DNA of 24,924 nt from a virus. The DNA is taken from UHGV virus genome UHGV-0876952, one strand, 5' to 3'. The notes under the pieces are model-generated. The model saw only the letters and a list, made by a program, of their open reading frames with translations, made no database searches and was not told the DNA's origin. Each line of letters starts with the position of its first letter. Positions within the stretch are counted from its first letter, which is position 1. The translations under genes and the position numbers were made by a program. Shown here piece after piece: positions 22,362 through 23,768 of this stretch.

Positions 22362-22635
22362 GTGGCTCACCCGGTAGGTAGTTACTTACTTATCACAATG
22401 AGCGGATGATAGCGACTGGTGGCAGTTTTTGGAAGTGAAAACGGAAGGGAGTTGTTCTGGTGGTGTCTTTTAAAAGACCTGCTTCCGTATATATTTAATA
22501 AGTTACTTATTATTTATATACAGAAACAGGCTCCTAATGGATACCAAGAACAACATAATTTGACTCCAACCCCAGATGCTATGTCATTGACAGATTTATC
22601 AAGGGAGATCATGTTAGAATCAGTGTTTTAGCCTC

Positions 22636-23238
22636 GTGGATATTGTCACCATGCGCATGAATAGACTTCCAGGATATGGCCTTCCCGAACTGGCTTTTTG
22701 GCCTCAGCCTAAATATGAACGGAATAAATGGTCGATGTTCTGTCTGAAACTCCGTAATGATGGAACCCTTGCTTGGTATCGGCGATATGTTGATCGTGGT
22801 ATGCCAAACCACGCTTTTGATGACGACTACGATAACTATCCTGAAGCAAGAAAAGCGGCATTAGAGCTGAATAAAAACGTGAGCTTTGACATTGAAAAAC
22901 TTCCTCTATCTATGTTTCAAAAGAAGTCATTGCGTTTGAAAGTTGACAAAGCACTCAAAGCCAAATCACGTCTCATGGATGAAGAGCATATAATGCTCAA
23001 CGAAGCAATTAAGGCACACGCCAACGATCCGCGAGTGACATTAAATGAGTTAATAATTAACCCAGATTACGAAACTTTGCGTCAACCCCTTTTTGACGTG
23101 CTAAGCGAGATGCCTTACTTACATTTTGTTTTCTTCCCAAATTCCAAGTTTCACTTCAACTCGTTGCTCCTAACACTTGGGAATGTTCATATAACAACAA
23201 AGCTAAGACAGCGAAGATCTGCTACCAAGAACGCATAG
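22636..23238 (+). CDS. hypothetical protein (plus-strand island gene 1)
   Basis: 200-aa ORF with track start GTG 22636; ATG 22651 is an alternative start. Opposite orientation to all flanking genes. Confidence 0.55.
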   Translation: MDIVTMRMNRLPGYGLPELAFWPQPKYERNKWSMFCLKLRNDGTLAWYRRYVDRGMPNHAFDDDYDNYPEARKAALELNKNVSFDIEKLPLSMFQKKSLRLKVDKALKAKSRLMDEEHIMLNEAIKAHANDPRVTLNELIINPDYETLRQPLFDVLSEMPYLHFVFFPNSKFHFNSLLLTLGNVHITTKLRQRRSATKNA

Positions 23239-23300
23239 CCAGAGGTTTTGGTTTATCAGGTGCTGCACATTGGGGAAAAACAAAAGCGACTATTCGCTCA

Positions 23301-23708
23301 ATGCTTCTGCCGCGTGCTAACCGGTTACTGCAACTCGCCAGCGTAAAAAGAATGCTGGATGAAGCTCTCAGGAATGGGCAAAAGGTACTGGTTGTTGGCA
23401 ACTTTGTTTTCTGGTTTGAGGACAAAAATCAGGTAGGTTGGAGTGTTAAAGTTGCTAGCGAAAGCGAAACCACCTCAAGAGGCAATACGCTCTGGAAAGA
23501 AGGAACTATCATTTCAAAAAATCACGGTCGAATTGTCGTGCTGCCGTATACAAAAGAAAACGGTAAACATGTAAAAGGTTATACCAAGAATGCCCCTAAC
23601 GACGGCAACGCAATTCCGAGACATAAGGATGAGTATGTCGAGTTGCCCTTTGAAATTTTGGATGGTGACTTGATGTTCAGTCTGTTCGGTGAGCTTAACT
23701 ACGAATAG
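23301..23708 (+). CDS. hypothetical protein (plus-strand island gene 2)
   Basis: 135-aa ORF; weak RBS; no recognisable motif. Confidence 0.5.
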   Translation: MLLPRANRLLQLASVKRMLDEALRNGQKVLVVGNFVFWFEDKNQVGWSVKVASESETTSRGNTLWKEGTIISKNHGRIVVLPYTKENGKHVKGYTKNAPNDGNAIPRHKDEYVELPFEILDGDLMFSLFGELNYE

Positions 23709-23731
23709 CTTTCATAGAACGAAATATTTCT

Positions 23732-23757
23732 AAGGCTGTCCAATGCAGACCAGCCTT
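23732..23757. terminator. hairpin AAGGCTG-N12-CAGCCTT between convergent genes
   Basis: 7-bp inverted repeat between the plus-strand gene end (23708) and the parG-like gene end (23769). Confidence 0.3.
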
Positions 23758-23768
23758 AGAGATTTATA

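What the first reader, a model, noticed from the sequence alone, without database searches (positions are those of the whole stretch)
22373..23760. Plus-strand two-gene island with a palindrome-rich divergent control region
Two genes of unknown function (200 and 135 aa) run against the surrounding minus-strand genes. The divergent intergenic region carries nested symmetry: ACGGAAG ... CTTCCGT (22441-22488) enclosing the perfect 14-bp palindrome GTCTTTTAAAAGAC (22465-22478), plus an AATAAGTTACTTATT near-palindrome at 22497-22511. Such control regions usually mark regulated accessory or switch modules.
Basis: seen in the sequence. Interest (0 to 1): 0.45.

Follow-up and report, generated by a model that had tools for sequence, protein, structure and literature searches.

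The report
Split cargo gene in phage-plasmid hotspot
The "two genes" are one uncharacterised 352-residue gene, split here by a single missing base, that sits in a swappable slot of an SSU5-like phage-plasmid where relatives carry anti-phage defence genes; most of the palindromes belong to the conserved backbone, not to the gene.

Summary
The window is an SSU5/pHCM2-like E. coli phage-plasmid.

1. The 200-aa and 135-aa ORFs are one 352-aa gene (22651-23708). It is split by a 1-nt deletion in a T-run (23129-23132). None of 69 matching records in two overlapping collections has that deletion. The window has other private homopolymer deletions that break other genes, so a sequencing error is likely.

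2. The gene plus its own promoter and terminator hairpin (22532-23767) is a swappable cassette between the replication operon and the parA-type partition genes. Relatives carry PD-T4-3, PDC-S31 (DUF2971) or PDC-S49-like genes there.

3. The 352-aa family matches no Pfam, NCBIfam or PADLOC model and no solved or viral fold. It recurs as a single gene in a P2 hotspot, next to Gabija, Mokosh and TIR genes, and beside prophage integrases. It is a candidate defence gene; the mechanism is unknown.

4. The palindromes lie in backbone that is conserved whatever the cargo.
- The real element is a 53-bp hairpin (22478-22530) followed by a conserved U-tract on the minus strand, so probably a terminator. 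It has three dispersed copies per plasmid.
- The 14-bp palindrome and the 7-nt repeat are not beyond chance.

This is not a divergent switch module.

The parts
21621..22361 (-). Left flank. First gene of the leftward replication operon: 246 aa from the ATG at 22361, phrog_2500, function unknown. The DnaB-like helicase (20236-21576) and the primase follow it.
   Evidence: Conserved in all relatives examined.
22406..22434 (-). Predicted sigma-70 promoter of the leftward replication operon: -35 TTCCAA (22434 to 22429), 17-nt spacer, -10 TATCAT (22411 to 22406).
   Evidence: Read from the sequence. Relatives have -10 TATGAT or TATCAT and an invariant -35 block. The strict consensus scan did not call it. 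Inference.
22425..22450 (.).
   Evidence: All but one position is identical in 10 relatives from four genera, whatever the cargo. Function not tested; it overlaps and lies upstream of the predicted -35.
22465..22478 (.). 14-bp perfect palindrome GTCTTTTAAAAGAC. Its A-rich right half directly abuts the hairpin, which puts a U-tract (UCUUUU) after the hairpin on the minus strand.
   Evidence: The palindrome itself is only in two E. coli relatives. The A-tract next to the hairpin is in 10 of 10. Not beyond chance as a palindrome.
22478..22530 (-). 53-bp AT-rich palindrome or hairpin with a GC-rich base. Probably an intrinsic terminator or insulator for leftward transcription. It is one of three dispersed copies per plasmid and marks the left edge of the swappable cassette.
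   Evidence: (minus-strand RNA -38.1 kcal/mol, z -7.9).
22532..23767 (+). Swappable cargo cassette: promoter, one ORF and a terminator hairpin.
   Evidence: Homology with relatives that carry other cargo stops after 22531 and resumes at about 23768.
22612..22620 (+). Extended -10 promoter element TGtTAGAAT for the cargo gene. The TTGACA at 22587-22592 lies 22 nt away, too far to act as its -35.
   Evidence: Conserved as TGTTA(A/G)AAT in the K. oxytoca and pHCM2 copies of the cassette. Inference; not called by the strict scan.
22651..23708 (+). A single gene for a 352-aa protein of an uncharacterised family (phrog_22329). In the window it is read as 22651-23238 plus 23301-23708 because of a frameshift.
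23129..23132 (+). T4 run where every matching relative has T5. This 1-nt deletion splits the gene.
   Evidence: None of 32 PLSDB records or 37 RefSeq E. coli plasmids shares it; the two collections overlap, so this is fewer than 69 distinct plasmids.
23721..23750 (.). Cassette terminator hairpin, CTAAGGCTG...CAGCCTTAG, between the cargo gene and the convergent 119-aa gene.
   Evidence: -18.5 kcal/mol, z -4.4. pHCM2 keeps the stem through a compensatory change, CTAAGGCGG...CCGCCTTAG.
23769..24796 (-). Right flank. A 119-aa gene (23769-24128, phrog_5111, function unknown, presumed ParA partner) and the ParA-type ATPase gene (24128-24796).

Best explanation
The region is a cargo slot in an SSU5/pHCM2-like phage-plasmid. 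It lies between the parA-type partition genes and the leftward helicase/primase replication operon.

In this element the slot holds one self-contained transcription unit: an extended -10 promoter, a 352-aa ORF and a terminator hairpin. The unit encodes a widespread, uncharacterised protein. Related elements carry unrelated genes in the slot, matching the known PD-T4-3 defence system or the candidate defence families PDC-S31 and PDC-S49.

I infer that the 352-aa protein is a stand-alone anti-phage or superinfection-exclusion gene, expressed from the plasmid prophage. Its conserved C-terminal beta-rich domain (W..G.I.S.NHG..V.LPY.K..G..V.G.TKN....G.A.PR) would be the active or sensing part. The biochemical mechanism is unknown.

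In this window the gene reads as two ORFs only because one T is missing from a T5 run. That is most likely a homopolymer sequencing error; otherwise it is a very recent inactivation.

The palindromes are backbone features. A 53-bp hairpin followed by a conserved U-tract on the minus strand acts, I infer, as an intrinsic terminator or insulator. It would end leftward transcription from the partition genes and cargo region before the promoter of the replication operon. Cassettes would be exchanged by homologous recombination in the conserved flanks, which are the hairpin on one side and the 119-aa gene on the other.
For: Shown:
- Element identity.
- One gene, 1-nt deletion.
- The deletion is private: 0 of 32 PLSDB and 0 of 37 RefSeq records share it.
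- Other private homopolymer deletions split a cobT-like gene and a 420-aa gene. None of 138 and 29 relatives shares those.
- Cassette boundaries are at 22531/22532 and about 23768.
- Alternative cargo at the same site: PD-T4-3-like (1.3e-23); PDC-S31/DUF2971; PDC-S49-like. PD-T4-3 has been reported in SSU5-group elements (10.1101/2025.09.12.675607).
- The 352-aa family is conserved at about 50% identity from E. coli to Pseudomonas, Vibrio and Aeromonas.
- Contexts elsewhere, always as a single gene: the P2 gpA-portal hotspot beside a PDC-M01 pair; directly after GajA/GajB; between a TIR PDC-S35 gene and Mokosh MkoA; beside P4 beta/cII and Gabija; just past prophage integrases.
- Prior from the literature: 6 of 8 unknown loci taken from P4 hotspots protected against phages (PMC13586616).
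- Hairpin: -38.1 kcal/mol, z -7.9. The U-tract is conserved in 10 of 10 relatives. In relatives with minus-strand cargo it starts about 15-25 nt past that gene's stop. One base pair switches between C-G and T-A.
- Cassette terminator with a compensatory change.

Inferred: the defence function, the promoter assignments, termination at the hairpin, and the recombination route.
Against: - Guilt by association can mislead. Integrase-adjacent moron slots also hold virulence and counter-defence genes.
- The hairpin shares primary sequence among its three copies, 43 of 53 nt identical between copies 1 and 2. Copy 2 has no U-tract in either direction. That fits a protein-binding site better than a plain terminator.
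- The terminator scan did not call the hairpin.
- No reads are available, so sequencing error and real mutation cannot be told apart.
Confidence: 0.6

Rival explanations
1. First reader's model. A regulated two-gene accessory or switch module whose expression is set by operators (the nested palindromes) in a divergent control region shared with the leftward gene.
For: - The genes run against their neighbours, and palindromes lie in the 289-bp divergent intergenic region.
- The locus is variable among relatives.
Against: - It is one gene, not two.
- The palindromes lie outside the swappable unit and are kept with any cargo.
- The 14-bp palindrome is not conserved, and neither it nor the 7-nt repeat exceeds chance.
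- The long palindrome recurs at two unrelated junctions.
- No Pfam DNA-binding domain was found in the ORF products or the intact protein.
Confidence: 0.05
2. The 352-aa protein is cargo, but not a defence gene. It could be a counter-defence factor, a host-modulating moron, or a factor that helps the element compete with other plasmids or phages in some other way.
For: - No match to any defence model.
- In Salmonella and Citrobacter it sits past the integrase next to an NEL effector gene or host genes, a slot that also holds virulence morons.
- In Pantoea it is on a plasmid next to umuDC and IS66.
Against: - It repeatedly neighbours known or candidate defence genes in unrelated genera.
- It is allelic with PD-T4-3, PDC-S31 and PDC-S49 in the same slot.
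Confidence: 0.3
3. The 53-bp palindrome is a dispersed protein-binding site, in the manner of the P1 C1 operators scattered over that genome. It would control the lytic operons (replication, packaging, and a third) rather than act as a terminator.
For: - Three copies, all just upstream of minus-strand gene blocks, share primary sequence including the loop in copies 1 and 2.
- Copy 2 is conserved in Yersinia pMT1 and Klebsiella and has no U-tract.
- In some copies the arms differ in ways that break pairing.
Against: - No copy lies near the HTH regulator gene.
- Copy 1 keeps an adjacent U-tract in 10 of 10 relatives and lies just past the stop codon of minus-strand cargo.
- One stem pair covaries between C-G and T-A.
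- At 53 bp it is long for an operator.
Confidence: 0.3
4. The frameshift is a real inactivating mutation, so the cargo is a pseudogene in this isolate, and not a sequencing error.
For: - The deletion is present in the sequence given.
- Cargo genes can be costly and may be lost.
Against: - At least three other private 1-nt homopolymer deletions in 25 kb split genes that are intact in all relatives checked, including a conserved cobT-like gene. That is the pattern of homopolymer under-calling.
- A survey of P2/P4 hotspots found that defence loci are swapped without pseudogenes (PMC13586616).
Confidence: 0.25
5. The gene is a plasmid replication initiator and the palindromic region is its origin.
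For: It lies next to the replication and partition genes, beside an AT-rich structured region.
Against: - The gene is absent from most relatives, which keep the same backbone.
- No Rep domain.
- No iterons: only two- or three-copy short direct repeats, typical of chance matches.
- Homologues sit in chromosomal islands and prophages.
Confidence: 0.02

Closest known systems
[quoted passage not shown] 2022, cited from my own knowledge; PMC13586616 read here)
   Same: - A fixed slot between conserved core genes.
- Unrelated defence genes swapped among near-identical elements.
- Many occupants of unknown function.
- A homologue of this very gene sits in the P2 gpA-portal hotspot in Serratia.
   Different: - The host element is an SSU5-like phage-plasmid, and the slot lies between the partition and replication modules.
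- I found no published description of this slot in the two papers whose text I searched or in the titles and abstracts returned by the literature searches.
- The left edge is a conserved hairpin.
PD-T4-3 (GIY-YIG single-gene defence; Vassallo et al. 2022, from my own knowledge), PDC-S31 (DUF2971) and PDC-S49 candidates in PADLOC
   Same: They occupy the same slot in sister elements, as single genes with their own expression signals or coupled to the 119-aa gene.
   Different: No sequence similarity to the 352-aa protein: BLASTP E of 4 or more against the PD-T4-3-like gene, and no PADLOC hit.
P4 gop-beta-cII system
   Same: In Pseudomonas the 352-aa homologue sits directly upstream of beta-like and cII-like genes. 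That is the position and orientation gop has in P4.
   Different: - Gop is 133 aa and unrelated (hhalign probability 0.3%).
- There is a 268-bp gap before beta.
- The window has no beta or cII.
Intrinsic (rho-independent) terminators and terminator-like insulators between phage operons
   Same: A hairpin with a GC-rich base followed by a U-tract, just downstream of a stop codon in relatives and upstream of the next promoter.
   Different: - An unusually long (26-bp arm) AT-rich stem.
- The same sequence is reused at three loci.
- One copy lacks the U-tract.
Dispersed C1 operators of phage-plasmid P1, and the PeSL promoter/stem-loop cassettes of T4-type phages that flank shuffled genes (both from my own knowledge, not tested)
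   Same: A repeated palindromic element at junctions between operons, one of them at the edge of a variable gene cassette.
   Different: - No binding protein or promoter activity is known for it.
- Only three copies.
- 53-55 bp long.

Membership tests
Mobile-element defence hotspot (P2/P4-type) | Fixed position bounded by conserved core genes | tested here: met
   The slot lies between the hairpin/246-aa gene and the 119-aa/ParA genes in every relative examined.
Mobile-element defence hotspot (P2/P4-type) | Unrelated gene content among closely related elements | tested here: met
   Four unrelated kinds of cargo: the 352-aa gene, a 255-aa PD-T4-3-like gene, DUF2971 genes of about 250-267 aa, and a 568-aa PDC-S49-like gene. 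SSU5 adds two more genes of unknown function. The flanks are 75-99% identical.
Mobile-element defence hotspot (P2/P4-type) | Occupants include known defence systems | tested here: met
   PD-T4-3 at 1.3e-23. PDC-S31 and PDC-S49 are candidate systems only.
Anti-phage defence gene (the 352-aa protein itself) | Confers phage resistance when expressed | not testable with these tools
   Needs plaque assays with the intact allele.
Anti-phage defence gene (the 352-aa protein itself) | Homology to a known defence family or effector domain | tested here: not met
Anti-phage defence gene (the 352-aa protein itself) | Recurrent residence in defence islands or mobile-element hotspots across taxa | tested here: met
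   Of the 11 homologues looked up, most lie beside known or candidate defence genes or in prophage moron slots. The Pantoea plasmid copy shows no defence neighbour.
Divergent regulatory switch (repressor/operator module) | A DNA-binding regulator encoded in the module | tested here: not met
   No Pfam HTH or other DNA-binding domain in the two ORF products, the intact protein or 40 homologues. The fold searches gave no significant match.
Divergent regulatory switch (repressor/operator module) | Operators that travel and co-vary with the module | tested here: not met
   The palindromes stay with the backbone whatever the cargo. The 14-bp palindrome is not conserved.
Intrinsic terminator (hairpin 22478-22530, minus strand) | Stable hairpin followed at once by a U-tract | tested here: met
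   -38.1 kcal/mol, z -7.9. UCUUUU or UCUUUUU follows in 10 of 10 orthologous copies. Copy 2 elsewhere in the plasmid lacks the tract.
Intrinsic terminator (hairpin 22478-22530, minus strand) | Transcripts actually end there | not testable with these tools
   Needs Term-seq, 3'-RACE or a reporter assay.
Programmed ribosomal frameshift or phase-variable tract | A slippery heptamer or long repeat tract, with the interrupted state shared by relatives | tested here: not met
   The T4 run sits in CATTTTGTTTTCTTC, with no X XXY YYZ motif. All 69 matching records (two overlapping collections) have the uninterrupted T5 form.
Iteron-type replicon (Rep protein plus origin) | Rep domain, iterons, and indispensability | tested here: not met
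   No Rep domain, no iteron array, and the gene is absent from most relatives.
P4 gop-beta-cII system | A Gop homologue with adjacent beta and cII genes | tested here: not met
   No similarity to Gop. The window has no beta or cII. Adjacency was seen only in Pseudomonas.

The most novel reading that the evidence does not exclude
The 352-aa family is a new single-gene anti-phage defence system. Its conserved C-terminal domain has no match among the solved and viral structures I could search. A roughly 60-residue core of that domain (W..G.I.S.N.G..V.P....G..V.G.T......G.A..R) is also fused to other N-termini in other proteins. The slot between the partition and replication modules would be a previously undescribed defence hotspot of SSU5-like phage-plasmids, bounded by a dispersed 53-bp hairpin element.
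Probability: 0.4. Interest if true: 0.6.

Novelty: new member of a known kind. Interest (0 to 1): 0.4.

Why it matters
SSU5/pHCM2-like phage-plasmids are common in clinical E. coli, Shigella, Klebsiella and Salmonella Typhi. A defined cargo slot that exchanges defence genes would help explain how they compete with other phages. It would also give a simple place to look for new defence genes.

The 352-aa family is widespread across Gammaproteobacteria, always occurs as a single gene, and matches no family or fold. That makes it a cheap and well-motivated candidate for a phage-resistance screen.

For annotation, the result is a caution. The "two-gene island" and several other split genes in this window are probably homopolymer errors.

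Tried and rejected
- Replication initiator or origin idea. I first suspected an iteron replicon beside the partition genes. Rejected: the gene is dispensable, has no Rep domain, and there are no iterons.
- Homology and fold searches for the 352-aa protein were all negative:
  - Pfam on the single sequence and on 40 members, NCBIfam, PADLOC, PHROGs (unknown-function family only).
  - PDB by phmmer and by profile.
  - BFVD by Foldseek (no hit at E of 0.001 or below).
  -. The AFDB library was not available.
- Exhaustive profile search of 1.84 billion representative proteins. It found 143 relatives, including other architectures that share the core motif. None of the 10 scanned has a Pfam domain.
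- P4 Gop homology: none.
- Rfam on the intergenic regions: only sub-threshold miRNA-hairpin look-alikes.
- Strand inference from G-U wobbles in the hairpin. Abandoned because relatives show both orientations of the mismatch.
- The nested ACGGAAG/CTTCCGT helix. No compensatory changes, so I treat it as coincidental overlap of two conserved elements.
- Literature searches by accession and by topic. I found no description of this gene family or of this slot.
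Full report
**What the window is**

The 24.9-kb window matches SSU5/pHCM2-like phage-plasmids of E. coli at up to 98.8% identity over 98% of its length. The best match is pLAU-OXA1, NZ_CP045278.1. It covers the DNA polymerase, cobT-like, integrase, tRNA, ligase, primase and helicase genes. Almost all of them are on the minus strand. The window ends at a 119-aa gene and a ParA-type ATPase gene.

**Checking the observation**

The two + strand ORFs also exist: 22636..23238 and 23301..23708.

The closest relative annotates a single 1059-bp CDS of 352 aa at this place. A base-by-base alignment shows that the window lacks one T in a T5 run, at 23129-23132. Translation confirms it:
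- Frame 1 reads ...SEMPYLHFVF and then goes out of frame.
- The other frame continues LPKFQVSLQLVAPNTWE..., as in the intact protein.

None of 32 PLSDB records or 37 RefSeq E. coli plasmids that carry this allele has the deletion. The two collections overlap, so this is fewer than 69 distinct plasmids.

The window also has other private single-base homopolymer deletions:
- One at 9002 helps split a cobT-like gene into three ORFs, together with a further 1-nt difference at about 8511.
- One at 13624-13625 splits a 420-aa gene.
- None of 138 and 29 relatives respectively shares these.

That pattern points to homopolymer under-calling in the assembly rather than biology. Without reads I cannot prove it.

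On chance:
- The 14-bp perfect palindrome is one of 3 in the window, against 1.7 expected.
- 7-nt inverted repeats no more than 40 nt apart number 149 in the window, against about 73 expected.
- The significant element is a 53-bp palindrome at 22478-22530, with 22 of 26 arm positions matching. The best of 60 simulations reached 19.
- AATAAGTTACTTATT is its centre, and CTTCCGT is part of its left arm.

**The gene is swappable cargo**

A search with 22371-23768 finds the whole stretch in 138 plasmids: E. coli and Shigella at about 99%, Klebsiella at about 80%, and Salmonella pHCM2 at about 74%. More than 200 further E. coli relatives match only the first 160 bp or so. The backbone junction itself is in about 657 plasmids.

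Alignments place the break points precisely. Homology with relatives that carry different cargo stops after 22531, the last base pair of the long palindrome. It resumes at about 23768, just before the stop codon of the 119-aa gene.

Between these points, relatives carry:
- a 255-aa PD-T4-3-like gene on the + strand (pM160133_p3, PhiR41_1; PADLOC 1.3e-23);
- a DUF2971/PDC-S31 gene on the minus strand (Cyrano, SSU5, pJN2-26, pPMK1-B, an Enterobacter plasmid);
- a 568-aa PDC-S49-like gene (E. coli TUM13926);
- both the 352-aa gene and a DUF2971 gene (pHCM2).

A survey of clinical phage-plasmids independently reports PD-T4-3 in SSU5-group elements of E. coli and Shigella (10.1101/2025.09.12.675607).

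The slot therefore behaves like the defence hotspots described for P2 and P4.

**The cassette is a complete transcription unit**

Upstream of the ATG at 22651 there is an extended -10 element, TGtTAGAAT, at 22612-22620. It is conserved in the K. oxytoca and pHCM2 copies.

Downstream there is a hairpin at 23721-23750 (-18.5 kcal/mol, z -4.4). pHCM2 keeps its stem through a compensatory change.

**The protein**

The 352-aa protein belongs to phrog_22329, function unknown. It matches nothing in Pfam, NCBIfam or PADLOC, and no PDB sequence.

Homologues of about 350 aa, at about 50% identity, occur in Enterobacterales, Vibrio, Shewanella, Aeromonas, Colwellia and Pseudomonas. The C-terminal 160 residues are the most conserved.

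An exhaustive profile search found 143 representative proteins. Some have different N-termini and share only a core of about 60 residues: W..G.I.S.N.G..V.P....G..V.G.T......G.A..R, which is P0001 residues 282-324. None of those scanned has a Pfam domain.

Structure prediction gave two models:
- The full-length AlphaFold model is confident for residues 1-220: two beta-beta-beta-alpha modules and long helices.
- A separate model of the C-terminal domain reaches pLDDT 83.6.

**Genomic context of the family**

It is always a single gene, and it lies in mobile or variable regions:
- In a Serratia P2-like prophage, between gpA and the portal gene. That is the classic P2 hotspot. It sits next to a PDC-M01A/B pair.
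- In Vibrio parahaemolyticus, immediately after GajA/GajB and before a HEPN-Toprim protein.
- In V. splendidus, between a TIR PDC-S35 gene and Mokosh MkoA.
- In Pseudomonas, upstream of P4-type beta and cII genes and near Gabija.
- In Salmonella and Citrobacter, just past the integrase of a lambdoid prophage.
- In Aeromonas, near an island integrase.
- In Shewanella, near a large deaminase-domain protein.
- In a Pseudomonas tail-gene cluster, next to a SLATT-domain gene.
- In Pantoea, on a plasmid.

P4 Gop is unrelated.

In a recent study, 6 of 8 unknown loci taken at random from P4 hotspots protected against phages (PMC13586616). None of the new systems named there resembles this protein.

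From all this I infer a stand-alone defence or exclusion function, at about even odds. The mechanism is unknown. Conserved Ser, Asn, His, Thr, Lys and Arg residues in the C-terminal domain suggest that it binds a phosphate-bearing ligand or nucleic acid, but that is speculation.

**The palindromic region**

The stretch from the ATG of the 246-aa gene (22361) to 22531 is backbone. It aligns in 10 relatives from four genera whatever their cargo. It contains three things.

(i) A plausible leftward promoter:
- -35 TTCCAA at 22434 to 22429 and -10 TATCAT at 22411 to 22406, with a 17-nt spacer.
- The -10 varies only between TATCAT and TATGAT.

(ii) A near-invariant 26-nt block, 22425-22450, which includes ACGGAAG.

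(iii) The 53-bp hairpin, preceded on the + strand by a conserved A-tract:
- On the minus strand the hairpin folds at -38.1 kcal/mol (z -7.9).
- It is followed by UCUUUU(U) in all 10 relatives.
- In relatives whose cargo is on the minus strand, it begins about 15-25 nt after that gene's stop codon.
- One stem pair switches between C-G and T-A, with both intermediates present.

I therefore read the hairpin as an intrinsic terminator or insulator. It would close leftward transcription ahead of the replication-operon promoter.

The 14-bp palindrome is simply this A/T tract in one E. coli sub-lineage. It is absent from Salmonella, Klebsiella and Enterobacter copies. The outer ACGGAAG...CTTCCGT pairing shows no compensation when the hairpin arm changes, so I treat it as coincidental.

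**A complication**

The same palindrome occurs three times in pLAU-OXA1:
- at this junction;
- upstream of the small-terminase-like, terminase and portal genes (first 43 nt identical);
- between a DNA adenine methyltransferase gene and the next gene.

All three are in the same orientation. The second copy is conserved in Yersinia pestis pMT1 and in Klebsiella, and it has no U-tract. Primary-sequence conservation across separate loci fits a protein-binding site. A dispersed operator therefore remains a serious rival, at about 0.3. Rfam has no family for the element.

**Comparison with known systems, and novelty**

The locus works like a P2/P4-type defence hotspot and meets the three features I could test. 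Whether the 352-aa gene protects against phage cannot be tested here.

It is not a member of any known defence family, of gop-beta-cII, of an iteron replicon, or of a programmed-frameshift system. It does not fit a divergent repressor/operator switch.

I rate it a new member of a known kind: hotspot cargo in a mobile element. There is a moderate chance that the protein is a new defence family whose C-terminal domain has no recognised fold.

**Verdict**

- The "two genes" are most probably a sequencing artefact.
- The "palindrome-rich control region of a switch module" does not hold.
- Interest: 0.4.

Noticed in passing
L019:22768-22822 and L020:18668-18722 (pLAU-OXA1 61768-61822 and 95668-95722); also L016:4002-4056 (Y. 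pestis pMT1) and L017:4001-4055 (Klebsiella): Two more copies of the 53-55-bp palindrome lie at other junctions between operons: one upstream of the terminase genes and one downstream of the adenine methyltransferase gene. Both have the same orientation. Copies 2 and 3 are flanked by an outer GGTCTGG...CCAGACC/CCAGAAC inverted repeat.
   Followed up: partly
window 7881-9989 (about 8511 and 9002) and 12666-13926 (about 13624): A cobT-like gene (one 702-aa CDS in pLAU-OXA1) is split into three ORFs, and a 420-aa gene into two, by single-base homopolymer differences. None of the 138 and 29 relatives checked shares the two deletions tested. These are probably assembly errors. Further private homopolymer deletions lie at about 15093 and 18093.
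   Followed up: partly
window 14119-14669 (minus strand): A cluster of four tRNA genes: Ser(tga), Thr(tgt), Tyr(gta) and Asn(gtt). It is 78-93% similar to tRNA clusters of P7, D6 and other coliphages.
   Followed up: no
L010:8001-10933 (Pseudomonas chromosome); also L009 and L011: The 352-aa homologue lies directly upstream of P4-type beta and cII homologues, in the position gop has in P4, with Gabija next door in L010. It may be an alternative partner of beta/cII.
   Followed up: partly
P0237, P0239, P0246 and others (aligned in A6): The core motif of about 60 residues (P0001 residues 282-324) also occurs in shorter proteins whose N-termini carry CxxC...CxxC zinc-ribbon-like motifs and coiled coils. 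None of those scanned has a Pfam domain, so this looks like a wider uncharacterised superfamily.
   Followed up: partly
L003:3269-5149 (pHCM2) and L005:4188-6100 (SSU5): The slot can hold more than one unit. pHCM2 has the 352-aa gene plus a DUF2971 gene. SSU5 and pJN2-26 have DUF2971 plus two further genes of unknown function (136 and 214 aa).
   Followed up: partly
window 10551-12035: An HTH regulator gene (128 aa, + strand) lies convergent with, and overlaps the 3' end of, a tyrosine integrase gene (367 aa). It is a candidate lysogeny regulator of the element. No copy of the palindrome lies near it.
   Followed up: no
L029:1-1716 (E. coli TUM13926 plasmid): In this relative, transposase genes lie where the primase gene sits in other relatives. 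The gene at the helicase position is annotated as only 273 aa, which suggests an insertion sequence has disrupted the replication operon.
   Followed up: no
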